This document shows positions 1-12,805 of a DNA stretch of 13,409 nt, piece after piece. This stretch comes from Enterobacterales bacterium. Its GTDB lineage: Bacteria; Pseudomonadota; Gammaproteobacteria; Enterobacterales; Enterobacteriaceae. The DNA is taken from assembly GCA_015654745.1 (NCBI GenBank), contig JAATGH010000204.1:1-13409 (forward strand), given 5' to 3'. The stretch's first letter is position 1. Each line of letters begins with the position of its first letter. The position numbers and the translations under genes are program-made. The notes below the pieces were generated by a model that saw only the letters and a program-made list of their open reading frames with translations, was not told where the DNA came from and searched no databases.

Positions 1-1237
1 CGGGCAAGCCTTCGATCACGCCGGCCGCCTGGGCGCCGGTGGCGAGTACATCGCGGATTGTCACGTCATGTACCCTAGGGGTGGTCGCCGATATCGGCAG
101 CGGGTCGATTGCCGGCAACGCGCCTTTGACCGAGGACTCGCCATTATAAACATTGCTGATAGTGATGGGGACACGCACATCGCGCATGGTCAGATGATCC
201 GCGGTAATAGCGCCGATATCCGAGCCGCGATCGCGCGCAGACTTTATGCGAATCCCGTTTTCCGTACCCTCGAACTGCAGGTGGCTTAGATGGATATGGC
301 CAATCCCGTGCGCCGTCTCACTGCCGATAGAGACACCATGACCCTGGCGGAAAAACGAGTCCCGCACGACGATATCGGTTGACGCCGCGCCCGGTGCCGT
401 CGGAAGCCCGGATTTGATCGCCACGTTATCATCCCCGGAGGCAACGTCGAGATGGCTCAGCAGGATGTGGGACGAGGAAACGATATCGATACCATCGGTA
501 TTCGGCGAGTCGGGAGGATTACGCAGCGTGGTGCCATCAAGGCGCAGATTTTGGCTATTGCGCAGCACCACCGTCCACATCGGCGAATTTTTCAGGTGTA
601 CCGCGCCGATCAGGCCCCGATCAATATGGCTGAATTCGATTAGCCACGGCCGGGGCATCCCATTAGCCAAAGGAATGCCAGGGAAACGTTGCTTAAAGTA
701 GTCGGGATCGCCGCCGCGGACACGTTGACGAACCTTCATGGCCTCCGGCCAGAATAGCGTGTCGCCACTGCCATCAATGGTACCGAAGCCGGTAATTTGC
801 ACATTTTTGGCATCTGCGGCACGGATAAAGGCCTCCCCCGGCTGAGACGGCGAACCGATGAACGCGGCCTTAAAATCACGACCGGCGGTTCCCGTTTTCG
901 GATGGAGAGCCTTAAGCGTGGCGTCAGCGGTCAAATGCAAATTCACGCCCGATTTCAATTCGAGCGGACCGCTTAGGTACACACCGTTGCCCAGCTTGAC
1001 CATGCCGCCACCGGCGGCGGTCGCCTTATCGATTGCCTGCTGAATGGCTAGCGTATTATCGAAGGCGTTATCCGCCTTTGCGCCGAAAATTTCCGGCAAA
1101 AAGACCTGCTGCGCGTCAACCTTTATACTGGAGGACGTCGCCGCCGAAACCGGGGCCAGGGATGCGGTTGCGCATACCAGGCCCGCCATGAGAGAAATCG
1201 AAAGAGTACGTACCAACGGAATGTGACAAGCTGACAT
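1..1237 (-). CDS. Secreted glycoside hydrolase family 28 polygalacturonase (pectinase). Only the N-terminal ~412 codons are in the window; the C-terminus lies beyond position 1.
   Basis: Manual translation of the minus strand from ATG at 1237..1235 (AAGGA Shine-Dalgarno about 8 nt upstream) gives an uninterrupted frame that runs off the window edge. This explains why no long ORF is listed here in the ORF track. The product has a signal peptide (MSACHIPLVRTLSISLMAGLVCATASLA). It then carries the four canonical GH28 catalytic motifs in order: NTDGIDI, GDDNVAIKSG, QGHGVSIGSE and GIRIKS. Confidence 0.85.
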   Translation of the reverse strand, partial: MSACHIPLVRTLSISLMAGLVCATASLAPVSAATSSSIKVDAQQVFLPEIFGAKADNAFDNTLAIQQAIDKATAAGGGMVKLGNGVYLSGPLELKSGVNLHLTADATLKALHPKTGTAGRDFKAAFIGSPSQPGEAFIRAADAKNVQITGFGTIDGSGDTLFWPEAMKVRQRVRGGDPDYFKQRFPGIPLANGMPRPWLIEFSHIDRGLIGAVHLKNSPMWTVVLRNSQNLRLDGTTLRNPPDSPNTDGIDIVSSSHILLSHLDVASGDDNVAIKSGLPTAPGAASTDIVVRDSFFRQGHGVSIGSETAHGIGHIHLSHLQFEGTENGIRIKSARDRGSDIGAITADHLTMRDVRVPITISNVYNGESSVKGALPAIDPLPISATTPRVHDVTIRDVLATGAQAAGVIEGLP

Positions 1238-2848: not shown

Positions 2849-3658
2849 CTATATTGCCCGGAGCACCACGATCCCCGGCGTCTTCTTGATATAGGCCAGA
2901 AAGGGCGAGTCCACGACTTTCCGATGCGCCGCGCGGGACGATGCGTTGCGTAATACCGGTCCCCGGTCGGTCATGATAAAAATACCGGTATGGGTCACAT
3001 CCATTCCAGCCATCGGGGTATAGATACCGATAAAGTCGCCGCTTCTTAGCCGACCGACGACGGCACTGTTGACCGCCTTGGCCGGTATGTAGGTGATGGC
3101 TCGCGTCTCGACGCCCAACGAGGGAAATACCCTGCCGCCGTCGGCGGTTTGATTGAGCGCCTTAACGATGGTGACGGCGCTGGGGCTGATGGCGCGGGTG
3201 ATATCCGTGGCGTTTAGGGGTGGCAAAGATGACCAGTCGGTAAAAAATTGCTTGCGGTGAGCGTAGCTGACGTCGCCATCGATATACCGGGTCTGCTTGA
3301 GCCGATCGTTAAATTGGTCGGCGTTGGCGGATTTACTCAGCGCATCGACATAGTCGAGATAGGTGAAACAATCGACCCCGCGAAAATCGATGACCAACCG
3401 TTCGGCTACGCGGTCCGATCCCACCAGCCGGTTCGCGACGTAGGGAGTTCCTAAAAAGTCGGCGGAAATGGTCGTGATGCGCTCGCCCAGGCTGTTCTCC
3501 CGCCCGTTGACGCGAAGGTCCGCCACGATCGCGTCGATTTTGGTGAGGGTGTAGCTATCGATATCCGCCGGTTGCGCGCCGGCCTGCGCCATGGGTTGGT
3601 GGCTGGCGGCGCATCCCAGAAGTGAAACCGCCAGCAATGCTGGCATATATTTTCGCAT
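2849..3658 (-). CDS. DUF1460-family lipoprotein with an NlpC/P60-like papain fold. Putative peptidoglycan (MurNAc-L-Ala) amidase or peptidase, about 269 aa.
   Basis: The start was moved from the ORF-track ATG at 3685 to the ATG at 3658. The 3658 start is preceded by GGGAGGAGG 4 nt upstream, and the protein then begins MRKYMPALLAVSLLGCAAS, a lipoprotein signal with lipobox LLGC. Candidate Cys/His catalytic pair lies in GVDCFTYLDY and DVTHTGIFI. The family assignment is from memory of the Pfam DUF1460 / AmiA-like family, not from a search. Confidence 0.5.
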   Translation of the reverse strand: MRKYMPALLAVSLLGCAASHQPMAQAGAQPADIDSYTLTKIDAIVADLRVNGRENSLGERITTISADFLGTPYVANRLVGSDRVAERLVIDFRGVDCFTYLDYVDALSKSANADQFNDRLKQTRYIDGDVSYAHRKQFFTDWSSLPPLNATDITRAISPSAVTIVKALNQTADGGRVFPSLGVETRAITYIPAKAVNSAVVGRLRSGDFIGIYTPMAGMDVTHTGIFIMTDRGPVLRNASSRAAHRKVVDSPFLAYIKKTPGIVVLRAI

Positions 3659-3750
3659 GTCCTCCTCCCTAGAGGGCGTTGGCATGGCGGCCGTTAACCG
3701 TCACCGTGACAAAACCGCGCTATGTTACCGCGCCGGGCCGTTGCCGGAAA

Positions 3751-5715
3751 TCATTTTCGCAGCGGGATATCCGGCGGTTCCTGAGCCCCCAAGGGCTCGT
3801 CAAAGCGCAGCAGTCGCCCCGCATTGCCCAATACCAGAAGGGTGCTGAGATTATGCAGTACCGCCGCGATCATCGCCCCGCCGGCGCCAAGTAGACCAAA
3901 CGCCGCCGCGGCGACGATCAGCAGCGTCCACCCCAAACCGATCAATACATTGACCTGTAGCGTATGCCGGCACCGGCGGCTAAGTCGTACACAGGTACCG
4001 AGACGGCGCAAATCGTCGCCGATCAGCACCACGTCCGCCGACGCCAGAGCGATATCGGCGCCGCCCATGGCCACACCCACAACGCCCGCTTTCAACGCCA
4101 GGGAGTCGTTGATACCGTCGCCAACCACCATCGGCCGGAAACCTTGGCGAATTTCCGCGCCAACGCAGCGTAATTTATCCTCAGGCAACGCCTGGGCAAT
4201 CACCTGGTCAATCCCCACATCGGCCGCAATACGGCTGGCGACCCGCAGTCGATCGCCGGTCAGCAACAGTTGCCGCCGGAGACCCAGTTGGCGTAGTTCG
4301 GCCAGCGCCCGCGCCGCCTCGGGGCGCACCGTATCCGCCAGCAGCAGCCAGGCGCAAAATCGTCCGTTAAGCGCCAGACCGACAATGGGTCCGTCATGAT
4401 CGGGGATCGCGGCGGTACTCATGCCCCGCTGTTCAAACAGTTCGGCCCGGCCTAGCACGACCTCGCCCAGCCCGCTGTCGGCGACGACTCCGAGCCCCTG
4501 CAGTTCAATGATATTCTCCAGCGCGGGATAGTCATGTCGAGGCACCAACGCGGCGAGCGCGCGACTGATAGGGTGGTTACTGGTCGCGCCCAGACCGGCG
4601 GCCACGCGCTGGAGCTGGTCCAGGTCTGTGCCCGGCTGTGGGCGGATCGCGTGCAGGCGCAGCGCGCCATGGGTCAGCGTGCCGGTTTTATCGATCACCA
4701 GAGAGGTGAGATCCGCCAGTTCTTCGAGAAAGGCCGCGCTGCGGATCAATATCCCGTGCCGGGCGGCAACCGCCAGCCCGGCGATGGCCGTGGCCGGCGC
4801 CGACAAGACCAGGGCGCAGGGGCAGGCGGCGACCAGAACCGCCAGCATGGCCTGGGCATTGTTGGTAATAAACCAGGTCGTCGCGGCAATCATCAGCACC
4901 AGTATCAGATACCGTCCGGCATATCGCTCCAATAGCCGGACAATGGGCGGCTTGGCATGTTCGGCTTGCTGCATCAGGGCAATCACCTTGCCCAGCGTCG
5001 ACCCTTCGCCGATGCGGGTTACTTCAATACGCAGCAGCCCGTCGAGATTGATTGACCCGCCATAAACCTCCTGACCTGCGCATACATCCAGAGGCAACGA
5101 TTCGCCGGTGATCGGCGCAGTATCCAGACTACCCTGCCCCTCCAGCACCCGACCGTCGGCCGGCACCCGATCGCCGGCGCGCACTTCCACCCAATCACCG
5201 GCAACCAGTAAGGCATTATCGATTTCGCAAATATGGCCCTCGGCGTCAATGCGTCTGGCCTGGCTGCGGGTCAGTTGGCCCAGTGCCTCGATGGCCTCTT
5301 GCGAACCGATAACGCTACGCTCCTCCAGCACATGGCCGAAGATCATAATAATGGGCAGCAGCGCGGTGGTTAGCAGATCACCGCTGGCCCAGGCACAGAG
5401 CATGGCCAAGGCAATCAGCTGATCGGTAATACCGTGCAGGCTGGGATGTCGCAGGCTATGCCAGGCGGAGCGGAACACCGGCAGCGCCACCAGCAGCGCG
5501 GCGCTGCCCAGCAGTAATTGGCCTACGCCCTGCTGCTCGGGAGCGTACCCGCGCCACAGCAACCCGAGGATCAGCAGCCCCGAGGCAATCATGGCCAGGC
5601 TAAGCTGGCGTGCCACGCTGAGCCGTTCCGCCCGGGTCAGCATCGTCGCGGTGAGATGGGTATGATGATGCCCATGGCCGTCGCGGGAGGAAGAAGACGT
5701 AGCTGACCTGCTCAT
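3751..5715 (-). CDS. P1B-type heavy-metal translocating P-type ATPase, 654 aa. It has a His-rich N-terminal tail and no HMA (CxxC) domain.
   Basis: Phosphorylation motif DKTGTLT. Hinge motif GDGINDSLALKAG. Actuator-domain TGES. Transmembrane CPC motif in the context ACPCALVLSAP. HP dipeptide (SNHPIS). Eight predicted TM helices. N-terminus MSRSATSSSSRDGHGHHHTH. The start ATG at 5715..5713 overlaps the upstream gene's TGA (ATGA overlap). Confidence 0.9.
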   Translation of the reverse strand: MSRSATSSSSRDGHGHHHTHLTATMLTRAERLSVARQLSLAMIASGLLILGLLWRGYAPEQQGVGQLLLGSAALLVALPVFRSAWHSLRHPSLHGITDQLIALAMLCAWASGDLLTTALLPIIMIFGHVLEERSVIGSQEAIEALGQLTRSQARRIDAEGHICEIDNALLVAGDWVEVRAGDRVPADGRVLEGQGSLDTAPITGESLPLDVCAGQEVYGGSINLDGLLRIEVTRIGEGSTLGKVIALMQQAEHAKPPIVRLLERYAGRYLILVLMIAATTWFITNNAQAMLAVLVAACPCALVLSAPATAIAGLAVAARHGILIRSAAFLEELADLTSLVIDKTGTLTHGALRLHAIRPQPGTDLDQLQRVAAGLGATSNHPISRALAALVPRHDYPALENIIELQGLGVVADSGLGEVVLGRAELFEQRGMSTAAIPDHDGPIVGLALNGRFCAWLLLADTVRPEAARALAELRQLGLRRQLLLTGDRLRVASRIAADVGIDQVIAQALPEDKLRCVGAEIRQGFRPMVVGDGINDSLALKAGVVGVAMGGADIALASADVVLIGDDLRRLGTCVRLSRRCRHTLQVNVLIGLGWTLLIVAAAAFGLLGAGGAMIAAVLHNLSTLLVLGNAGRLLRFDEPLGAQEPPDIPLRK

Positions 5716-6776
5716 TTTTTGGTAGGCTCCCGAGGCTCAGCGCCCTGCAAAATCAGTTGGGCATCGTCGCCCGGATTGATAACGGTGACCGAACCGGCCT
5801 TGGCGAAAAGAGTCGCCACCCTGGCGCGATAAAGACGCCAAAGCATTCCCGGGTCGTTTCCACTTCGCTGCGTCTGCGCCAAGTTACTGATATCCGCAGT
5901 CTGCGCTTGAGCACGGGCCATACGTTCACTGGCGCCGGCGTAGGCAACCTGCAGCGTGCGATCGGCGTTTTGGGCCGCGGCCTGGGTCTGCCGCGCCGCA
6001 TCGTTTTGCGCCATGGCGATAGCCTGTTCAGCCCGTTGGCTGGCGGTCAGCACGGCGTTAAAGGCATCCACCGCTTCATTTGGCAACGATGACTGTACGT
6101 CTACCCGTTCTATTTCAATGCCCAGCCCGCCGCCGGCGGTGGCCAACGCATCAAGGCTGCGGTTTATCGCCTGTTGCAAATCGCCGCGCAGCCGCTCACG
6201 GCGCTGGGCCGCGCCGCTGTCACCGCTTACCAGTTCCGGCCGGGCAACCAGGATCGTGTCAAGATCGCGCGAGGCGCAGACCATTACCGCCGCGCGTTCC
6301 ACCAACCGGTTTAGCGCGGGTTCAACATGACTGTCCTCCAGCACCCAGGCATAGGGGTCGGTGATGCGGTAAAAGACGCGGACATCCAGCTGCGCCACGC
6401 CCGCGTCGCCGGTGAGCAAATAACCGGATCCGGCGAGTGCGTCGCCGCTCATGCTGATGTCATAGCGGATCTCGCGCGCTTGGTCCGACCGTAGCAGCGC
6501 TTCCACCCGATGTTCGATAACCCTTCCCGGCGAAGGAAGTATCACTACCTGTTCAAACGGCCGTGGCCACGCCCAAAGCAACCCGGCATGTTCAATACGT
6601 TGCATTGCCCCGAAACGCAGAACCACCGCCTGACTGTCGGGATTGATTTGGCGCACATTGGATATCAGCCAGCCGCACGCGGCCAGCAGCGTCAGCGCGT
6701 ACAGCGCCAGAAACACCAGCCGGCCCGTCTGGATCCAGGGTCCCTGTGGATTCGGCCCTCTCTCCGGCCGGTTCAC
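5712..6776 (-). CDS. SPFH/Band-7 (HflK/HflC-like) membrane protein, 354 aa, with a GTG start.
   Basis: N-terminal TM anchor (LVFLALYALTLLAACGWLI), then an SPFH core (AVVLRFGAMQRIEHAGLLWAWPRPFEQV ... DVRVFYRITDPYAWV) and an Ala/Gln-rich coiled C-terminus. The GTG start at 6776..6774 overlaps the upstream stop (GTGA). A GAGGGA Shine-Dalgarno sits 8 nt upstream. Confidence 0.75.
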   Translation of the reverse strand: MNRPERGPNPQGPWIQTGRLVFLALYALTLLAACGWLISNVRQINPDSQAVVLRFGAMQRIEHAGLLWAWPRPFEQVVILPSPGRVIEHRVEALLRSDQAREIRYDISMSGDALAGSGYLLTGDAGVAQLDVRVFYRITDPYAWVLEDSHVEPALNRLVERAAVMVCASRDLDTILVARPELVSGDSGAAQRRERLRGDLQQAINRSLDALATAGGGLGIEIERVDVQSSLPNEAVDAFNAVLTASQRAEQAIAMAQNDAARQTQAAAQNADRTLQVAYAGASERMARAQAQTADISNLAQTQRSGNDPGMLWRLYRARVATLFAKAGSVTVINPGDDAQLILQGAEPREPTKK

Positions 6777-8017
6777 GGATGCGATCCCTCGGCGGGGGCA
6801 TCGGATGCGGCCCCCGCTGCGGCGGCCGGCGGCCGGTGTCCTGTGGGTGGCGCCGGCTGCGGCGCGGAGGGGGCTATCGGTTGCACTGCGCCACTGGTGA
6901 TGGGTAAGCGCGGCGGGCCGTCAACCAGCACGCGAAACGGCGCGGCGTCGGTACGCAAAACCAGACGGGTAGCGGGAGTAATCAAGGTGCCCAGGGTATC
7001 CAGAGAGCGCAGCAGGTTATATAACTCTGGCGAGCTGGCGTAGGCTTTGCCATAGATATCCGCTGACTCGACCTGCGATCGTGCTTCGATGGCGGCGGCC
7101 TTTACCGTAGCATCGGCTTGTATGATGCGGGCGTCTCGTTCCGCGCCCGAGCGGATTTCCGCCGCCTTGCGCTTCCCTTCCGCCGTGCGTTCGGTGGCGA
7201 TGGTCTCGCGTTCGGCGCGCATGCGATCGACCGTGGCGCCCAGGGTCACCGCCGGCAACGTCAGGCGTTCGATGCCCACGCTGATTAACCGTATTCCGTA
7301 ACTGTCTCGTAGGGGCTGCTCAATCTGCGCGCGTAGGCGTTGTTAAACCTGCGCAAGCTGTACCCGGGCGGGATCGGTGTTCACCAGTCGGTCCAACGCA
7401 AAACCGCTGGTCGTGGTTTCCAGCGCCGATCCGACAAAAGTGCGGATTTGCCGGGCCGCTTCATCCGGCTGATTTTGTACCGCGCGCATAAATCGTTCCA
7501 CATGCCCCGGATCGGCCTGTACCTGCCAAACCGCGTAAGCCTGGATGATAATGCGCAGACCATCGCGGGTGCCAACGTCCTGCAGGCCGCTGGACGTCGT
7601 GCGTAGTCGCAAATCAACCGGGATGGCGGTCTCGAAGGGCATCGGCCAGCGCCAGGCGATGCCCGGCTTAAGCAGCACCCGCACGGGATTACCAAAGCGG
7701 GTGATAACCGTGGCCTCCCCCGAACGAACCTGCACCAGACTGGCGGCGGCGGCAATCACCATGACCAGCGCGACGGCCAGTCCCACGCGCCGCCGCCGCG
7801 ATGCGGGAGTGAGCATTGCGTCATGGTCATGGTCATGGTCATGGTCATGGTCATGGTCATGGTCATGGTCATGGTCATGGTCATGGTCATGGAAGGAATG
7901 GTGCCCTCCATGATCTCCGTGTTCACCATCGTGTTCCGGTGGCTGACCGGAACGGGAGGATATCTGACTCAAAGAAGGTCTCCGGCATCGATTACTGGTT
8001 ATCAATAGACTGGCCAT
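6773..8017 (-). pseudogene. HflK/HflC-like SPFH gene encoding an N-terminal His/Asp-rich tail that includes (HD)12. It is interrupted by a single in-frame TAA at 7345..7343. The ORF track splits it into a 224-aa and a 168-aa ORF.
   Basis: The two track ORFs (7343..8017 and 6773..7279) are in the same frame, separated by exactly 21 sense codons after the TAA. My translation reads ...ARVQLAQV*QRLRAQIEQPLRDSYGIRLISVGIERLTLPAV.... The upstream part has a TM segment plus the SPFH N-terminus (ATVITRFGNPVRVLLKPGIAWRWPMPFE). The downstream part is a typical HflC C-terminal half (VDRMRAERE...AIEARSQVESADIYGKAYASSPELYNLLRSLDTLGTLI). A read-through product would be about 414 aa. This could be a nonsense mutation, a sequencing error or read-through, and I cannot distinguish these from sequence alone. 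Confidence 0.6.
7821..7892. repeat. Perfect hexanucleotide tandem repeat (TCATGG)x12. On the minus strand it reads CATGAC, encoding (His-Asp)12.
   Basis: Seen directly: 72 bp of uninterrupted TCATGG. The flanking minus-strand codons are degenerate copies (gaa cac gat ggt gaa cac gga gat cat gga ggg cac cat = EHDGEHGDHGGHH). It lies inside the 5' part of the interrupted SPFH gene. The plus-strand ORFs reading SWSW..., HGHG... and VMVM... are frame shadows of this tract. Confidence 0.95.
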
Positions 8018-10019
8018 TTGGCGCGTCCGGTCGCTGCGGCGGCGGCGGTCCTAACGGCTGCTTTGCCTGGGGTTTGCCCACATCTGGACCCGCCGCGCCG
8101 GCATCGATCGGCGCGCTGAAATTTCTCAAATCAAGGGTGGGCGACGCGCCCGCGCTGATACGATGATCAAGCAGCAACATGGGCGTATTGGCCAGCGCCT
8201 GGCTAAGACGGCTGAAATAGGTCTCACTAAGAAAGGCTTGTCCGGCAGTTCGCCATGCCTGGCGTTGTGCGGTGAAACGCAGCTCCGCCGCGCGGGCGCC
8301 GGCGATATTCTCATGCGCACCCGCATCGGCCCGATCGGCGCGCATGCCGGCATCGAGCCGGGCGGCGCTGAGCAGCGCTGACGCATTGCCACCTTCGCGC
8401 GCAACCAGCGCCTGCGCCGCGATCTGCGCCGCCTGCACCCCATGGTAAGCATTGGCGGCTCCTGCCGGGGGATGGATAGCCTCAATGACGATGGCCAACA
8501 TTTCCACCCCGCTATTTAGGGCATCCAGCCGGTCTTGCACCTGACGGTGAATATTGTCGGCCAGACCCGCACGCTGGCTGCCCAACACGCCATCGAGCGT
8601 CAAAGACGCAAACTCGCGCACCAATATCTGATTGGCGGTGCTGCGGATTAACGAAGGAATATCGGCGCTGTTGTAGGCGGATGCCAGCGCCGCCGTATCG
8701 GTTAAACCGACGCGATAGATAAAACGCACATCCATATCGACGATCTGAAAGCTTTGCGCATTACCCATGTCGCTGGCAATAACCTGTGATTTCTCATTGC
8801 CGTGAACGCCATCCCACAGCCGGTTGGCGCTCTGTGGCGCGTCGCCTTCCGCCGCCACCGGCTCCTGATGCGCTTCCCCTGCCGCCACCAGCGTGGTCAG
8901 TTCATGCACTTCGCCATTTTCCACTGGCAATACGCGGCCGAACGGCCAGGGTAAACCCACATGCAGACCGGGAACCCATACCGCCGCGGGCTTGCCGAAA
9001 CGTTCATAAATACCGCGGCCGTTAACGGCGACTTCGCTAACGCCCGTCAGCATCCAGGCCACCAGCATCAATAGGATCAGCACCGGCGCAAACGCCCGCC
9101 GCATAAACGAAAAGGCCCAGACCTGGCGAAGATCGATACCAAAACGCTGCTTAATGTCCTCTTGTAGCGACGCCATAGATTGCGGCGGCCAACGCAGTTG
9201 GCCGGCGATAAAACTTGCGCCGATAAGCCGCGGCTCCTGACCAGGCCGTTGGGGATAAAAGAGGGAAAACAGCGCCCTGCCGGCGATTTCCAGCGCCACC
9301 AGCGCCGGTAATAGGCCGGTGAACATGGCCAGGTATGCCGGCCAGGGCAACGACGCGTCGGAAAACCATAAACAAAGCGCACACAACAGCGCCACGGCGA
9401 TCGCCACCCGGAGAAAGGGACCCAGGACCGCGGCCTCCGGCCACTCGGCTTCGGTGAGGGAGGCGAGGTAGCGCTCGAACAGCACTAAGGCAACGGCGGA
9501 CAAGAGCAGCAGGCCGGCGCCGACGTTAATCATCCTGCCGGGACCGGCGCTGGGTATGGCCAACCGCCATCCCAGAAAGACCATCAGCAACGCCAGCAGC
9601 GACAGCCCGATGATCCACAGCGCATCGGTGCCGACGCGCTGCCCATATTTTGCCAGGCGGTCAAGTCCGGCGCTCAGCCAGGTCAGTTTGGCCATACTGT
9701 CGACTACTGGGCCATCGGCGCCGCCCGCCGATGGCGCTGCCATAGACAGCAACGCGGCCGCCCGCCAGCGGGTCACGCCCCAGGCGGACTGAAACATCGC
9801 GATCAGCACCAGCAATACCGCGCTGATATTGCACAGGACCGGCAACCCTATTGAATCGGCGGCGTAAACATCAAACACCAGCGCGATGACGATCAACAGA
9901 CCACAAAGATTGCCCAACCCGAGCAGTAGCCAATACAGCCGCCGCGCCTGCCATTCAGCCTGCAGAAAACGCGGGAGCCGTGCCGGGCTCGCCTGCTCAT
10001 GCTCTGAATTATCGTCCAT
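7992..10019 (-). CDS. Fusion protein of about 675 aa. An N-terminal polytopic membrane domain of about 300 aa (roughly 6 TM, family not recognised) is followed by an SPFH/Band-7 domain and an Ala/Pro-rich C-terminal tail.
   Basis: SPFH core: SEVAVNGRGIYERFGKPAAVWVPGLHVGLPWPFGRV ... FQIVDMDVRFIYRV. The C-terminus is HflK-like and Ala-rich, ending in PPPPQRPDAPNGQ. I prefer the start ATG at 10019..10017, which has GGAG 5 nt upstream. The ORF-track ATG at 10079 has no SD. The 3' end overlaps the next SPFH gene's start by 26 nt. Confidence 0.65.
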   Translation of the reverse strand: MDDNSEHEQASPARLPRFLQAEWQARRLYWLLLGLGNLCGLLIVIALVFDVYAADSIGLPVLCNISAVLLVLIAMFQSAWGVTRWRAAALLSMAAPSAGGADGPVVDSMAKLTWLSAGLDRLAKYGQRVGTDALWIIGLSLLALLMVFLGWRLAIPSAGPGRMINVGAGLLLLSAVALVLFERYLASLTEAEWPEAAVLGPFLRVAIAVALLCALCLWFSDASLPWPAYLAMFTGLLPALVALEIAGRALFSLFYPQRPGQEPRLIGASFIAGQLRWPPQSMASLQEDIKQRFGIDLRQVWAFSFMRRAFAPVLILLMLVAWMLTGVSEVAVNGRGIYERFGKPAAVWVPGLHVGLPWPFGRVLPVENGEVHELTTLVAAGEAHQEPVAAEGDAPQSANRLWDGVHGNEKSQVIASDMGNAQSFQIVDMDVRFIYRVGLTDTAALASAYNSADIPSLIRSTANQILVREFASLTLDGVLGSQRAGLADNIHRQVQDRLDALNSGVEMLAIVIEAIHPPAGAANAYHGVQAAQIAAQALVAREGGNASALLSAARLDAGMRADRADAGAHENIAGARAAELRFTAQRQAWRTAGQAFLSETYFSRLSQALANTPMLLLDHRISAGASPTLDLRNFSAPIDAGAAGPDVGKPQAKQPLGPPPPQRPDAPNGQSIDNQ

Positions 10020-10079
10020 GATCGCTCCGAAGCATGCCGGGGCGACATCCGCAACTTGCCATCGTTTGGCCAACGCCAT

Positions 10080-10236
10080 GAATACAGTGAACGCTGTGCA
10101 TTATAGGAGATCGTCGTGAGTATTTAGCGTAACTTTATAACATCACTAAATACCCGAAAACAGCTTTATTACCAAAACTATGTAACCATACATATAGTTA
10201 GGAACATGCTAGGTTTATGCCCGCCACGCATAAACG
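10080..10236 (-). promoter_or_regulatory. AT-rich 157-bp intergenic region upstream of the SPFH-SPFH-SPFH-ATPase cluster. Probable promoter region.
   Basis: A perfect TATAAT on the minus strand (plus coordinates 10105..10100) sits 20 nt before the ORF-track ATG at 10079 and about 80 nt before the SD-supported ATG at 10019. No good -35 or TG extension. AT-rich in an otherwise GC-rich locus. Confidence 0.3.
10214..10234. other. Perfect inverted repeat TTTATGC-N7-GCATAAA, 3 nt downstream of the ABC ATPase stop codon.
   Basis: Seen directly. The stem is 7 bp and AT-rich, and no U-tract follows on the minus-strand transcript. It is therefore not a canonical intrinsic terminator. It could be a weak hairpin or a protein-binding palindrome. 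Confidence 0.3.
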
Positions 10237-11016
10237 TTAAAGCATATGCCGCCGGGCTTCGACGCGCACCAGGTGCAGGATTTGCTGCTTGATCACAGTG
10301 TAGCCCGGCGCCTGCGCCAGGGTTTCGATATTCCGGTCCCGGCCGAAGGGTAAAATCACTTCATCGACTATTTTGCCCGGCCGCGCGGACATCACCAAAA
10401 TCCGATCGGCGAGAAACAGCGCCTCTTCCACATCGTGGGTAACAAATAAAATCGTCGTGCCGGTCTGCCGCCAGGCATCCCGCAACAGTTCCTGCATCAT
10501 CATTCGTGTTTGCGCGTCCAGCGCCCCAAAGGGTTCATCCATTAACAGCACCTCCGGGTCCGGCAGCCAGGCCCGAGCCAGGGCCACCCGCTGTTTCATC
10601 CCGCCGGACAGTTGCCATGGCGCATGCTGGCCAAAGCCGTCCAAACCCACCCGTGTGAGCCAATCGCCAGCCTGGGCATTGGCCTCGGCTTTCTTTAACC
10701 CGGCCATGCGCGGGCCAAAGGAGATATTGTCCAATACCGATAGCCAGGGAAAAAGATTGGGCTGCTGGAACACCATGCCACGACTCGGATGCGGGCCGCG
10801 CACCGGACGACCGGCGCAAAGGATCCGCCCCTGCTGCGCAAGGGTAAAACCGGCAATCAGGTTCAGTATGGTGGACTTACCGCAGCCGGAAGGGCCGAGC
10901 AGCACCACGAATTCACCTTGGTCCAAGGCGAGCGACACATCGTCCAGTACCCTCAGCGCCTGGGGTTGCCCGGAGAATGTCAGCGTGACGTGCTCCAGGG
11001 TAATATGCTGCGTCAT
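10237..11016 (-). CDS. ABC transporter ATP-binding protein of the NitT/TauT family (TauB/SsuB-like), about 260 aa.
   Basis: Walker A LLGPSGCGKST. Q-loop. ABC signature LSGGMKQRVALARA. Walker B LLMDEPFGALD. H-loop VTHD. The ORF-track 398-aa version is over-extended into the permease gene. The real start is the ATG at 11016..11014, which has GGAAGGA 4-5 nt upstream and forms an ATGA overlap with the permease stop. Confidence 0.85.
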   Translation of the reverse strand: MTQHITLEHVTLTFSGQPQALRVLDDVSLALDQGEFVVLLGPSGCGKSTILNLIAGFTLAQQGRILCAGRPVRGPHPSRGMVFQQPNLFPWLSVLDNISFGPRMAGLKKAEANAQAGDWLTRVGLDGFGQHAPWQLSGGMKQRVALARAWLPDPEVLLMDEPFGALDAQTRMMMQELLRDAWRQTGTTILFVTHDVEEALFLADRILVMSARPGKIVDEVILPFGRDRNIETLAQAPGYTVIKQQILHLVRVEARRHML

Positions 11017-11786
11017 GCGTCCTTCCCTGCCCAGGGTACTAGCCATTTTTGCAATCCCACAATCAGTAAATCCAGTAAATAGCCAATGGCGCCCAGCAGC
11101 AGGATGCCAATCATCACGATATCGGTGCGCAAATAGGCACTGGCGTTGATCACCATCCATCCTAAGCCCGAGGTAGCCGCCACCAGTTCGGCGGCAATCA
11201 GCGAGGTCCAACCGACGCCTATGGACAGCCGCACGCTGGTAAACAGCTCGGGCAACGTATCCGGCAGCACCACGCGCCAAAAAATCTGCCGACGGGAGGC
11301 GCCAAGGGTCTGCGCCACACGGATCCGGGCGCCCCCGATTCGCTCCACCGCGGCGGCGGCGCCCACCACTACGCTTAGGAACGTGGCGATAAAAATCAGG
11401 AAAAATTTCGACGACTCGCCGATACCCAGCCATACCACCGCTAATGGAATCAGGGCGATTTTAGGTAACGGCCGCAAAAACTGGACAAAGGGATTGAGCG
11501 CGGCGGCGATCGGCTGCGACAATCCCATCAGCAGGCCCAGGGGAATGCCGCAGGCGATGGCCACGGTAAAGGCGCTGAGCGCGCGTGCCAGGCTAATGGC
11601 AATATGCTGCCATAACGGTACCTGACGGTAGCCGTCATGGAGCAGCTCAACGGTGGTTTCAGCAATATCGGAGAGCGGAGGCAGCAATAAGGGGTCGACC
11701 CAATGGCGTACTCCGGCGACTTGCCACAGCAGAAAAAACAGCGTCACCGAGACGACGCTGATAGCAACATGATTAACCGCTTTCAT
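11013..11786 (-). CDS. ABC transporter permease of the TauC/SsuC family (binding-protein-dependent inner-membrane component), 257 aa.
   Basis: Six predicted TM helices and an EAA-like loop region (ALSAFTVAIACGIPLGLLMG...). It lies 8 nt downstream of the SBP gene and is ATGA-coupled to the ATPase gene. Confidence 0.8.
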   Translation of the reverse strand: MKAVNHVAISVVSVTLFFLLWQVAGVRHWVDPLLLPPLSDIAETTVELLHDGYRQVPLWQHIAISLARALSAFTVAIACGIPLGLLMGLSQPIAAALNPFVQFLRPLPKIALIPLAVVWLGIGESSKFFLIFIATFLSVVVGAAAAVERIGGARIRVAQTLGASRRQIFWRVVLPDTLPELFTSVRLSIGVGWTSLIAAELVAATSGLGWMVINASAYLRTDIVMIGILLLGAIGYLLDLLIVGLQKWLVPWAGKDA

Positions 11787-11794
11787 AAGTGTGG

Positions 11795-12805
11795 TTATTT
11801 ACCCGCGGCCTGGCGAATAAAACTCGAATCGATGGCGTCTTTCCAGGTGGTGGGGATATCGCGTTTACGCACATCACCGGTACTTTCCAGAAAATGGGCG
11901 GTTTTATCCACCGCTTGGCCAATGCCGCTGCGATCGGTATCGGTGCCGTCGCCCAGCCAGGCGGCGGTGCCCTGCTCGGCAATGGACGGATATTCCAGAC
12001 CCGCCAACGTATTGGTGGCGGTGCTTACCGGCGCGCCAACCTCCTTGGCGACGATAGCGGCGGCAGCCTCGGGATTGCGACGGAACTCATCGACTTTTTG
12101 CTGATGCACTTTGAGGAAATTGATTACCACCTGGGGATATTGTTGGGCGAACGCTTTGCGCACCACATAGTTGTTATAAATAAGATAACCATCTTTCTGC
12201 AGATCTTTGGTGGCAAATACCTGATGGCCGCCTGAGGCCTCCAGCTCTTGGGCGAAGGGCGCCCAAACATAACCGGCGTCGATATCGCCGCGTTTCCAGG
12301 CCGCCACCATTTCCGCCGGGCGCAGAGGGATCAGGGTGATTTTGCTGCGATCAAGCTTATGTACGGCGATCGCCGCTTCCAGCGCATACTGGGACGTGGA
12401 ATTAGGTGGATAACCTACCCGTTTGCCTTCTATATCCTGCAGCCGGTTGATACCCTGCTTGCCAATCAAACGTTCATAGGTGGCGATGACGCCGGACACG
12501 CCGACGATTTCCACCGGCAGCTTACGCACGATGCCGGCGGTGGCCGGGCTGGAGCCGAAGTTGGCAATATCGATGGCATCACTGGCGAAAAAATTCAGCG
12601 CATCGGCGCCCGAGGCGAACTGTACCCATTTAACGTGGGTGCCCAGCGCCTTTTCCAGCGAACCGTCCTTTTTGGCCAGCAGTATCACCTGCGAACCACC
12701 GCTATAGGCAATGCGCACTTCATCCGGCAGCGCCGCAGCGTGAGCCTGGGCCAAAGTGACCAATACACCGGCGGCGCCGAGTATGGCCGTCATTATTTTA
12801 CGCAT
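11795..12805 (-). CDS. Periplasmic substrate-binding protein of the taurine/aliphatic-sulfonate/nitrate (NMT1/TauA/SsuA) family, 336 aa.
   Basis: Sec signal peptide MRKIMTAILGAAGVLVTLAQAHA. AGGGGA Shine-Dalgarno 6 nt before the ATG at 12805. Motifs resemble E. coli TauA as I recall it: NFGSSP...PVEIV, AAWKRGDIDAGYVWAP, YVVRKAFAQQYPQVV. No tauD/ssuD-type oxygenase lies in the window, so the substrate is unassigned. Confidence 0.7.
   Translation of the reverse strand: MRKIMTAILGAAGVLVTLAQAHAAALPDEVRIAYSGGSQVILLAKKDGSLEKALGTHVKWVQFASGADALNFFASDAIDIANFGSSPATAGIVRKLPVEIVGVSGVIATYERLIGKQGINRLQDIEGKRVGYPPNSTSQYALEAAIAVHKLDRSKITLIPLRPAEMVAAWKRGDIDAGYVWAPFAQELEASGGHQVFATKDLQKDGYLIYNNYVVRKAFAQQYPQVVINFLKVHQQKVDEFRRNPEAAAAIVAKEVGAPVSTATNTLAGLEYPSIAEQGTAAWLGDGTDTDRSGIGQAVDKTAHFLESTGDVRKRDIPTTWKDAIDSSFIRQAAGK

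What the first reader, a model, noticed from the sequence alone, without database searches (positions are those of the whole stretch)
3751..5715. Atypical short P1B ATPase with a CPC motif but non-canonical TM7/TM8 specificity residues
TM6 carries CPCALVLSAP, which matches the Zn/Cd/Pb-type CPC(x)4SxP pattern and also the Cu-type CPC(x)6P. The downstream helices lack the P1B-2 Asn-x7-Lys and Asp-x-Gly residues, and they also lack the Cu-type YN / MxxSS residues. The aligned positions instead read QVNVLIGLGW and AAVLHNLST. There is no N-terminal HMA domain, only a His-rich tail, and the protein is 654 aa. Its metal specificity is therefore not predictable from established signatures, and it may belong to a poorly characterised P1B subgroup.
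Basis: partly seen in the sequence, partly recalled or inferred. Interest (0 to 1): 0.55.

Follow-up and report, generated by a model that had tools for sequence, protein, structure and literature searches.

The report
HmtA-type zinc pump in SPFH operon
The "atypical" metal pump is an orthologue of Pseudomonas HmtA, a zinc-starvation P-type ATPase reported to import zinc and copper, and here as elsewhere it is the last gene of a conserved operon with three membrane-scaffold (SPFH) proteins whose role is unknown.

Summary
Window 3751-5715 (minus strand) encodes an intact 654-aa P1B ATPase. It has CPC in TM4, a His-rich tail and no HMA domain. It lacks the P1B-2 Lys/Asp and the Cu-type YN/MxxSS residues.

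It is 72-79% identical to the Pseudomonas proteins that include P. aeruginosa HmtA (PA2435). It sits in the same operon as PA2439-PA2435: three SPFH (HflK/C-like) genes followed by the pump. A Zur-box-like site lies upstream.

The TM6 sequence HNLST is the HNxxT hallmark of P1B-6. With CPC in TM4 this matches the "P1B-6-like" type described for M. tuberculosis CtpC. The His aligns with the His of P1B-4 HEGxT and with Asp714 of ZntA.

Literature on HmtA points to Zn (and Cu) handling under zinc limitation. The direction of transport is unsettled.

Beyond the finding:
- The three-SPFH-plus-pump module is conserved down to about 37% pump identity and is specific to this clade.
- In this window the middle SPFH gene carries an in-frame TAA.
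- The module looks horizontally acquired by a Sodalis/Acerihabitans-like host.

Verdict: a new member of a known but poorly understood kind.

The parts
3751..5715 (-). HmtA-family P1B-type ATPase, 654 aa, last gene of the operon. Its start codon overlaps the stop of the upstream SPFH gene (ATGA).
5656..5682 (-). His-rich N-terminal tail (DGHGHHHTH, residues 12-20). Predicted disordered; cytoplasmic by P1B topology (inference).
   Evidence: His-rich tails are common but variable in homologues (median 3 His, range 0-21).
4816..4824 (-). TM4 Cys298-Pro299-Cys300, at the helix break in the model.
   Evidence: Invariant in 119/119 close homologues.
3925..3951 (-). TM5 N589-VLIGLG-W596-T597. T597 occupies the position of ZntA Lys693, and W-T that of the Cu-type Y-N.
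3841..3855 (-). TM6 H621-N622-L-S624-T625, the HNxxT motif. H621 aligns with ZntA Asp714 and with the His of sCoaT HEGST.
4678..4692 (-). DKTGT phosphorylation motif (Asp342).
5712..6776 (-). SPFH-C: 354-aa HflK-like Band_7 protein with one N-terminal TM helix. Its GTG start overlaps the stop of SPFH-B.
6773..8017 (-). SPFH-B: HflC-like Band_7 gene with a His/Asp-rich N-terminus and one TM helix. It is interrupted by an in-frame TAA at 7343-7345, where 80/80 homologues have Glu.
7820..7892 (-). Perfect hexanucleotide repeat (12.2 copies) that encodes (His-Asp)12 in the SPFH-B N-terminus.
7992..10079 (-). SPFH-A: an N-terminal domain of 7 predicted TM helices with no Pfam family, followed by an HflK-like SPFH domain. 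The ORF from the first ATG is 695 aa. The database version starts at the ATG at 10019 and is 675 aa.
10127..10143 (-). Zur-box-like site ATGTTATAAAGTTACGC, 47 nt upstream of the ATG at 10079 and 107 nt upstream of the ATG at 10019.
   Evidence: The PWM was built from the 9 PAO1 Zur sites. This is the best hit in the window at 17.5 bits, within the training range of 17.4-28.3, and is reached by 3 of 200 shuffles. A homologous GTTATAnnnGTAAC site lies upstream of the first SPFH gene in 74 of 78 Pseudomonas loci by the site list. The P. aeruginosa site is TTGTTATAAAGTTTCGC.

Best explanation
The ORF encodes a catalytically intact orthologue of Pseudomonas HmtA (PA2435). HmtA is a P1B-type ATPase of the 'P1B-6-like' kind, with CPC in TM4 and His-Asn in TM6.

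It is the last, translationally coupled gene of a four-gene operon: SPFH-A, SPFH-B, SPFH-C, pump. A Zur-type operator precedes the operon. The operon should therefore be repressed when zinc is sufficient and expressed under zinc limitation (inferred).

The pump most likely moves Zn(II), and possibly Cu, across the inner membrane. The predicted binding site is formed by Cys298/Cys300 with His621/Asn622 (inferred from alignment). It would work through the ordinary E1/E2 phosphoenzyme cycle.

In P. aeruginosa the reported net effect of HmtA is metal uptake. The direction of transport is the least secure step.

The three SPFH proteins probably form an HflK/C-like assembly facing the periplasm. This assembly would scaffold or enclose the pump. 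The cytoplasmic His-rich tails of SPFH-B and of the pump would serve as metal-binding sites. This is an inference by analogy with HflK/C-FtsH and with PacL1-CtpC.

In this genome the module appears to be horizontally acquired, and SPFH-B is truncated by a nonsense codon.
For: Family identity.
- The pump is 72-79% identical over at least 94% of its length to Pseudomonas proteins, including the P. aeruginosa-group protein P0023 (76%).
- The locus of P0023 reads Band_7 665 aa / 343 aa / Band_7 346 aa / 144 aa / ATPase 660 aa / DUF4946, downstream of a GCV_T gene. This matches the published PA2439-PA2434 cluster.

Synteny.
- The SPFH-A, SPFH-B, SPFH-C, ATPase order is found in 80/80 Pseudomonas loci (SPFH-A in 79).
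- It is also found in the two nearest non-Pseudomonas relatives.

Zinc link.
- A Zur-box-like site lies upstream.
- Zur shifts the PA2439 promoter in EMSA.
- PA2435 and PA2437-PA2439 transcripts rise 5.6- to 14-fold in a znuA mutant.
- PA2435, PA2438 and PA2439 proteins rise under Zn depletion.
- HmtA overexpression causes Zn/Cu hypersensitivity and accumulation (Lewinson 2009, as cited).
- A distant module sits next to a cobW/COG0523 gene.

Pump chemistry.
- All P-type motifs are intact, and the TM residues are invariant in 119 homologues.
- H621 aligns with the metal-site positions of ZntA (Asp714) and sCoaT (His of HEGST).
- HNxxT is the P1B-6 hallmark and CPC+HN is the CtpC type.

SPFH specificity.
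- In a metagenome sample, SPFH genes flank 7/7 pumps of this clade against 1/73 other P1B ATPases (Fisher p=2.5e-9).
- The module persists at 58, 48, 47, 41 and 38% pump identity in look-ups.

Translational coupling. The start and stop codons overlap by 4 nt (GTGA, ATGA).
Against: Nothing was tested experimentally for this gene.

The import claim for HmtA rests on heterologous overexpression phenotypes. A review itself calls for confirmation.

hmtA mRNA was not repressed by Zn in one study. That study's authors suggested a mainly Cu role.

The Zur site is a PWM match only. It scores at the low end of the training range, and 3 of 200 shuffles reach it.

The host is an enterobacterium, and its Zur was not examined.

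SPFH-B carries a premature stop, so the module may be impaired here.

No physical interaction between the SPFH proteins and the pump has been shown anywhere.
Confidence: 0.75

Rival explanations
1. Same family, opposite direction. The pump would be an exporter like every structurally characterised P1B ATPase. Under zinc limitation it would move Zn (or another metal) from the cytoplasm into the periplasm, or into a space enclosed by the SPFH assembly. Its role would be to metallate extracytoplasmic proteins, in the manner proposed for CtpC or for the CopA2/CcoI-type pumps.
For: The fold and motifs are those of exporting P1B pumps. The His-rich tails lie on the cytoplasmic side, where exporters acquire metal (inference). 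The CPC+HN type includes CtpC, a Zn exporter that works with a membrane scaffold carrying a DLHDHDH zinc motif. SPFH domains of single-TM HflK/C-type proteins face the periplasm (own knowledge of HflK/C structures; hits).
Against: HmtA overexpression raised cellular Zn and Cu and caused hypersensitivity, which is the opposite of an exporter phenotype. Induction under Zn starvation fits uptake more simply.
Confidence: 0.3
2. It is a conventional Zn/Cd/Pb efflux pump of the P1B-2 type, as many database names suggest ('Cd2+/Zn2+-exporting ATPase', 'cadmium-translocating P-type ATPase').
For: TM4 reads CPC(x)4SxP. TIGR01512 'cadmium family' scores above its cut-off. Source annotations use these names.
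Against: The TM5 Lys and TM6 Asp are replaced by T597 and H621, both invariant in the family. The ZntA equivalog models score 264-299 bits against cut-offs of 1005-1240. There is no HMA domain. The upstream operator is Zur-like, the homologues are induced by Zn depletion, and CadA/ZntA falls under Zn depletion in the same data set. The clade is separate from the CPC/K/DxG clade.
Confidence: 0.05
3. It is a divergent P1B-4 pump (Co/Zn/Cd/Fe exporter of the CzcP/CoaT/PfeT type) in which SPC has become CPC.
For: The best solved-structure sequence match is the P1B-4 sCoaT 7qbz (E=5.2e-76). The TM6 H..ST aligns with HEGST. Like P1B-4 pumps it has no HMA domain.
Against: TM4 is CPC, not SPC. TM6 is HN-L, not HEG, and is invariant in the family. 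SPC/HEGST representatives form their own clade, closer to the P1B-2 type than to this protein. The margin over ZntA in the PDB search is small. None of the SPC/HEGST loci in the metagenome sample has SPFH neighbours.
Confidence: 0.07
4. In this genome the module is a decaying, non-functional acquisition. The pump ORF would be intact only because too little time has passed.
For: SPFH-B has an in-frame TAA where 80/80 homologues have Glu. The module's GC is 0.62-0.65 against 0.53-0.58 in the flanks. The module is absent from the equivalent murP region of the nearest relative. The host clade (Sodalis-allied) is known for pseudogene accumulation (own knowledge).
Against: The pump, SPFH-A and SPFH-C are full length with all conserved residues. 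The Zur-like site is retained. A single nonsense codon in a draft contig could be a sequencing error, and the two halves might still be made.
Confidence: 0.12

Closest known systems
HmtA (PA2435) of Pseudomonas aeruginosa and its PA2439-PA2434 cluster
   Same: About 76% identity over 95% of the length. Same length class, His-rich tail and lack of an HMA domain. Identical TM4/5/6 residues. Same upstream genes: one HflK-like, one HflC-like and one HflK-like SPFH gene. A nearly identical Zur-like site (TTGTTATAAAGTTTCGC against ATGTTATAAAGTTACGC).
   Different: The host is an enterobacterium allied to Sodalis/Acerihabitans. The window lacks the 144-aa gene (PA2436 position) between SPFH-C and the pump, and lacks the downstream DUF4946 gene (PA2434 position). 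SPFH-B is interrupted by TAA. The SPFH-B tail is a perfect (HD)12 repeat.
CtpC (Rv3270) with PacL1, the 'P1B6-like' Zn exporter and effluxosome of M. tuberculosis
   Same: CPC in TM4 with a conserved HN in TM6. It is encoded with a single-TM membrane partner that has a cytoplasmic His/Asp zinc motif (DLHDHDH) and flotillin-like repeats, and that scaffolds the pump.
   Different: The partner here is three true SPFH/Band_7 proteins, not DUF1490. Regulation is by zinc limitation (Zur), not zinc excess. CPC/xN/HNxGS representatives form a different clade from the window protein (that these are the CtpC group is my guess and was not tested). The published N-x18-HN-x-[ST] spacing is not met.
P1B-6 ATPases (FezB of ferrosomes)
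   Same: TM6 HNxxT motif. No canonical N-terminal metal-binding domain. Encoded in dedicated multi-gene membrane-protein clusters.
   Different: TM4 is CPC, not D[Y/F]SCA, and no representative near the window has SCA. The model has 8 TM helices, whereas FezB is described with 6. The context is zinc, not iron.
P1B-4 (sCoaT, 7qbz) and P1B-2 (ZntA, 4umv)
   Same: Overall P1B fold and catalytic motifs. These are the best sequence matches among solved structures.
   Different: Compared with P1B-4, the window has CPC for SPC and HNLST for HEGST. Compared with P1B-2, the TM5 Lys is replaced by Thr, the TM6 Asp by His, and there is no HMA domain.
HflK/HflC-FtsH complex of E. coli
   Same: SPFH-B and SPFH-C match the HflC and HflK models. 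The SPFH parts match HflK/C and erlin structures. In both systems the SPFH genes are encoded with a membrane ATPase client.
   Different: All scores are below the equivalog cut-offs. There are three paralogues instead of two. SPFH-A has an extra 7-TM domain. The presumed client is a P-type pump, not FtsH, and no complex has been shown.

Membership tests
P-type ATPase, class P1B | TGES, DKTGT, HP, TGD and GDGxND motifs, plus a Cys/Pro motif in TM4 and 8 TM helices | tested here: met
   Motifs at residues 203, 342, 381, 486 and 532, and CPC at 298-300. TIGR01525 at E=3.6e-152. The model has 8 TM helices. Foldseek top hits are P1B pumps.
HmtA family (PA2435 orthologues) | Close full-length sequence similarity to P. 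aeruginosa HmtA | tested here: met
   76% identity over 95% coverage to the P. aeruginosa-group protein P0023. The locus of P0023 matches the published PA2434-PA2439 cluster. The locus tag itself could not be read from a record.
HmtA family (PA2435 orthologues) | Operon with three HflK/C-family SPFH genes upstream | tested here: met
   Found in 80/80 Pseudomonas loci and in the window.
HmtA family (PA2435 orthologues) | Zur-controlled expression, induced by zinc limitation | tested here: inconclusive
   A Zur-PWM site of 17.5 bits lies at 10127-10143 and is conserved in Pseudomonas loci. Binding and expression were not testable here. Published data for PAO1 are mixed.
HmtA family (PA2435 orthologues) | Zn/Cu-selective transport with net import | not testable with these tools
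   Known only from reports on HmtA.
P1B-2 (ZntA/CadA) | CPC in TM4 | tested here: met
   C298-P299-C300.
P1B-2 (ZntA/CadA) | TM5 N(x)7K Lys and TM6 DxG Asp | tested here: not met
   T597 aligns with Lys693 and H621 with Asp714. Both are invariant in 119 homologues.
P1B-1 (CopA) | TM5 YN and TM6 MxxSS; N-terminal HMA domain | tested here: not met
   The window has W596-T597 and H621-N-L-S-T. No HMA domain. TIGR01511 scores 351.5 against a cut-off of 397.
P1B-4 (CzcP/CoaT/PfeT) | SPC in TM4 and HEGxT in TM6 | tested here: not met
   The window has CPC and HNLST. Only the His and the Ser-Thr are shared with sCoaT HEGST. It lies in a separate clade in the distance tree.
P1B-6 (FezB type) | TM6 HNxxT | tested here: met
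   HNLST at residues 621-625.
P1B-6 (FezB type) | TM4 D[Y/F]SCA | tested here: not met
   The window reads AACPCA. No [YF]SCA occurs in any of 134 representatives near the window.
'P1B6-like' (CtpC type, Boudehen et al. 2022) | CPC in TM4 together with a conserved HN in TM6 | tested here: met
'P1B6-like' (CtpC type, Boudehen et al. 2022) | N-x18-H-N-x-(S/T) spacing between TM5 and TM6, as stated in the 2026 review | tested here: not met
   The regular expression has no TM match in the window or in the representatives. N589 to H621 is x31. The published spacing may be counted differently.

The most novel reading that the evidence does not exclude
The three SPFH proteins and the His-type P1B pump would form one conserved machine, widespread in bacteria. 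An HflK/C-like periplasm-facing cage or microdomain would enclose or gate a zinc-limitation pump. Cytoplasmic His-rich tails would hand metal to or from the pump. The uncharacterised 7-TM domain of SPFH-A would contribute a second, possibly CDF-like, metal path. This would be a Gram-negative counterpart of the mycobacterial PacL-CtpC effluxosome. It might also explain how a P1B pump can give net metal uptake. In the searched literature these genes are mentioned only as 'HflK/HflC' neighbours of hmtA.
Probability: 0.3. Interest if true: 0.7.

Novelty: new member of a known kind. Interest (0 to 1): 0.4.

Why it matters
For this gene the result is mostly a correction. Database names such as "Cd2+/Zn2+-exporting ATPase" and motif-based reasoning both mislead. 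Orthology and context point to a zinc-limitation pump of the HmtA type.

The wider point is that HmtA remains one of very few P1B ATPases claimed to import metal, and its mechanism is unexplained. The data here add three things:
- Its TM site is a Cys-Pro-Cys plus His-Asn site shared with the P1B-6/CtpC type.
- Pumps of this clade are almost always encoded with three SPFH scaffold proteins, whereas other P1B pumps are not.
- The association is old, reaching about 37% pump identity.

This gives a concrete, testable hypothesis for the role of the "HflK/C" neighbours and for the direction of transport.

Tried and rejected
- Exact-sequence look-ups of the window proteins gave no names or record. 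The host was therefore inferred from MurP homologues.
- The megablast of the whole window against plasmids found only distant Rhizobium ATPase matches (71% nt) and no near relative.
- The sigma-70 consensus scan found no promoter on the minus strand upstream of the operon.
- NCBIfam has no specific model for this clade or its neighbours.
- The papers of Lewinson 2009 and Smith 2014 are not held. Their content is cited only through other papers.
- The published N-x18-HN-x-(S/T) spacing could not be reproduced.
- Foldseek of the pump model does not discriminate between P1B subtypes.
- Rfam found nothing in the window.
- Literature searches for an SPFH / P-type ATPase / Zur connection found nothing beyond the P. 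aeruginosa omics papers.
- The Pseudomonas Zur PWM finds no site in most distant modules. This may reflect different operators rather than different regulation.
- The distance tree is a neighbour-joining tree without support values and without named reference sequences. Clades were labelled by motif only.
Full report
**1. The observation.**

The window has a 654-aa ORF at 3751..5715 on the minus strand. It is a P1B ATPase. TIGR01525 matches at E=3.6e-152 and TIGR01512 at E=3.3e-141. The copper model TIGR01511 falls below its cut-off, and the ZntA and CopA equivalog models score far below theirs. Pfam finds only the E1-E2_ATPase and Hydrolase domains, so there is no HMA domain.

TGES, DKTGT, HP, TGD and GDGIND are all present. 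An AlphaFold model (mean pLDDT 70.7) shows a disordered tail at residues 1-26. Eight TM helices follow, with the M4 helix broken at the CPC. Its best structural matches are P1B pumps of all subtypes.

**2. The TM residues.**

I used the phmmer alignments to the solved P1B-4 sCoaT (7qbz) and P1B-2 ZntA (4umv).
- TM4 is C298-P299-C300-ALVL-S-A-P.
- TM5 is N589(x)6-W596-T597. T597 lies at the position of ZntA Lys693.
- TM6 is H621-N622-L-S-T(x)5-N631. H621 lies at the position of ZntA Asp714 and of the His of sCoaT HEGST.

The P1B-2 Lys/Asp and the Cu-type YN/MxxSS are absent. These residues are invariant in 119 homologues of at least 72% identity, so they are a family signature and not decay.

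**3. What the protein is.**

The closest database proteins, at 72-79% identity over at least 94% of the length, are almost all from Pseudomonas. They include a cluster of the P. aeruginosa group (P0023, 76%).

The locus of P0023 reads: Band_7 665 aa, 343 aa, Band_7 346 aa, 144 aa, ATPase 660 aa, DUF4946. It lies downstream of a GCV_T gene. This matches the published PA2439-PA2434 cluster, in which PA2435 is HmtA and PA2437-PA2439 are 'HflC/HflK family' proteins.

The window has the same arrangement upstream of the pump:
- SPFH-A at 7992..10079, HflK-like, with a long membrane domain.
- SPFH-B at 6773..8017, HflC-like.
- SPFH-C at 5712..6776, HflK-like.

The start and stop codons of neighbouring genes overlap by 4 nt. 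The same order is found in 80/80 Pseudomonas loci fetched with the pump. It is also found in the two nearest non-Pseudomonas relatives, which have different flanking genes.

**4. The link to zinc.**

I built a weight matrix from the nine published PAO1 Zur sites. Its best match in the whole window is ATGTTATAAAGTTACGC at 10127-10143, just upstream of SPFH-A. The score is 17.5 bits, at the low end of the training range, and 3 of 200 shuffles reach it.

A homologous GTTATAnnnGTAAC site precedes the first SPFH gene in 74 of 78 Pseudomonas loci. In P. aeruginosa the site is TTGTTATAAAGTTTCGC, the best hit in that locus.

Published work on PAO1 reports the following:
- Zur shifts the PA2439 promoter in EMSA.
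- The cluster is up 5.6- to 14-fold in a znuA mutant.
- PA2435, PA2438 and PA2439 proteins rise under Zn depletion.
- hmtA mRNA was not repressed by added zinc in one study.

HmtA overexpression is reported to cause Zn and Cu hypersensitivity and accumulation, hence its description as an 'importer'. A review asks for confirmation of that claim.

**5. Place among P1B subgroups.**

P1B-6 is defined by D[Y/F]SCA in TM4 and HNxxT in TM6. M. tuberculosis CtpC, with CPC in TM4 and a conserved HN in TM6, has been called 'P1B6-like'. The window protein has CPC and HNLST, so it fits the P1B6-like description. It fails strict P1B-6 on TM4. The published N-x18-HN spacing is not met.

I made a neighbour-joining tree of 132 representatives from an exhaustive HMMER search. 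It places the window protein in a large, diverse clade with an invariant TM6 His. In that clade TM6 reads mostly HN but also HT, HS, HV and HF, and TM4 is mostly CPC. The clade is separate from the clades carrying SPC/HEGST, CPC/K/DxG and CPC/YN/MxxSS. The tree has no support values and its clades are labelled only by motif. It is an indication and not a proof.

**6. The SPFH association.**

Look-ups of increasingly distant representatives gave these results:

| Pump identity to window | SPFH genes directly upstream |
|---|---|
| 58% | three |
| 48% | three by my SPFH HMM (two carry a precomputed Band_7 hit); a cobW gene lies nearby |
| 47% | three |
| 41% | three |
| 38% | three |
| 36% | at least one (contig cut) |
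| 41% (a second representative) | none |

A generic metagenome scan returned 80 mixed P1B loci. I scored these with an SPFH HMM built from the known modules. All 7 pumps of this clade had SPFH genes adjacent. In L096 the SPFH genes lie downstream of the pump, whose upstream flank is cut off after 238 bases. Among the 73 other P1B pumps only 1 had SPFH neighbours (Fisher p=2.5e-9). The exception, L128, has the SPFH matches downstream and within the pump ORF itself.

I found no paper in the held library that treats this module as a unit.

**7. The SPFH proteins.**

SPFH-B and SPFH-C each have one TM helix, and SPFH-A has seven. By the positive-inside rule and the odd helix count, all three SPFH domains should face the periplasm, as in HflK/C (inference).

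SPFH-B carries a His/Asp-rich N-terminus, which should be cytoplasmic (inference). His-rich tails are present in the homologues inspected. In the window the tail is a perfect (His-Asp)12 run encoded by a hexanucleotide repeat.

**8. Host and state of the locus.**

MurP, downstream of the module, is 89% identical to Acerihabitans and 86% to Sodalis, so the host is an enterobacterium of that group.
- The module has GC 0.62-0.65 against 0.53-0.58 in the flanks.
- It is absent from the murP region of the nearest relative.
- SPFH-A homologues occur patchily in Sodalis and Acerihabitans as well as in Pseudomonas.

This pattern suggests horizontal acquisition.

SPFH-B contains an in-frame TAA at 7343-7345 where 80/80 homologues have Glu. 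This is either a real nonsense mutation or a sequencing error.

**9. Mechanism.**

Shown directly:
- An intact P1B pump with a conserved Cys-Pro-Cys / His-Asn TM signature.
- Orthology and synteny with the hmtA cluster.
- A Zur-like site upstream.
- Clade-specific linkage to SPFH genes.

Inferred:
- Zn (and possibly Cu) as the substrate.
- Expression under zinc limitation.
- The SPFH proteins acting as a scaffold or cage, and the His-rich tails as metal sites. This is by analogy with HflK/C-FtsH and PacL1-CtpC.

Unsettled: the direction of transport. Reported phenotypes favour import. All structural precedent favours export, so I keep the exporter/metallation reading as the main rival.

**10. 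Verdict.**

The gene is a new member of a known but thinly characterised family (HmtA, P1B-6-like), not a new subgroup.

Noticed in passing
window 7343-7345 (minus strand), within 6773-8017: There is an in-frame TAA in the HflC-like SPFH-B gene. All 80 Pseudomonas homologues have Glu at this position, consistent with a GAA-to-TAA change. The 'Martelella alba' record and a Logan contig have the gene intact (340-341 aa). It is either a pseudogene or a sequencing error.
   Followed up: partly
window 7820-7892: A perfect hexanucleotide repeat (12.2 copies, 100% matches) encodes (His-Asp)12 in the SPFH-B N-terminus. Homologues have irregular His-rich tracts instead, so this looks like a recent in-frame expansion.
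   Followed up: partly
[not shown]
   Followed up: partly
window 2849-3685 and 10237-12805, compared with L091: The four-gene module sits between a NitT/TauT-type ABC transporter and an AmiA-like lipoprotein gene plus murP. The nearest relative (Acerihabitans sp. TG2) has murP and the AmiA-like gene but no module there. The module's GC is 0.62-0.65 against 0.53-0.58 in the flanks. This suggests horizontal insertion.
   Followed up: partly
window 2-1237 (minus strand): A secreted glycoside hydrolase family 28 protein (polygalacturonase-like; Pfam E=7e-38) runs off the left end of the window. This fits a plant-associated host of the Pectobacteriaceae/Sodalis group.
   Followed up: partly
window 10176-10199 (minus strand): An imperfect inverted repeat, AACTATATGTA-TGG-TTACATAGTT, lies about 35 nt upstream of the Zur-like site in the operon's leader region. 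It is not explained.
   Followed up: no
L128:6719-12060: A metagenomic P1B ATPase ORF of about 1100 aa (TM motifs CPC / VN / YHQFGS) itself matches the SPFH HMM and is followed by two more SPFH ORFs. It may be a pump-SPFH fusion in a different P1B clade.
   Followed up: no
L086:9092-10312: A distant three-SPFH-plus-pump module (pump 48% identical) lies next to a cobW/COG0523 gene. That family is typical of zinc-limitation regulons.
   Followed up: no
L081:7538-7972 and 9980-10525; protein P0017: The P. aeruginosa group has an extra 144-aa gene between SPFH-C and hmtA, and a DUF4946 gene overlapping the end of hmtA. One homologue (P0017, 841 aa) has the ATPase fused to DUF4946. Both extra genes are absent from the window.
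   Followed up: no
plasmid records NZ_CP117260.1 and NZ_CP117265.1 (Rhizobium tumorigenes): Plasmid-borne heavy-metal ATPase genes with about 71% nucleotide identity to the window pump show that relatives of this pump occur on replicons outside the chromosome.
   Followed up: no
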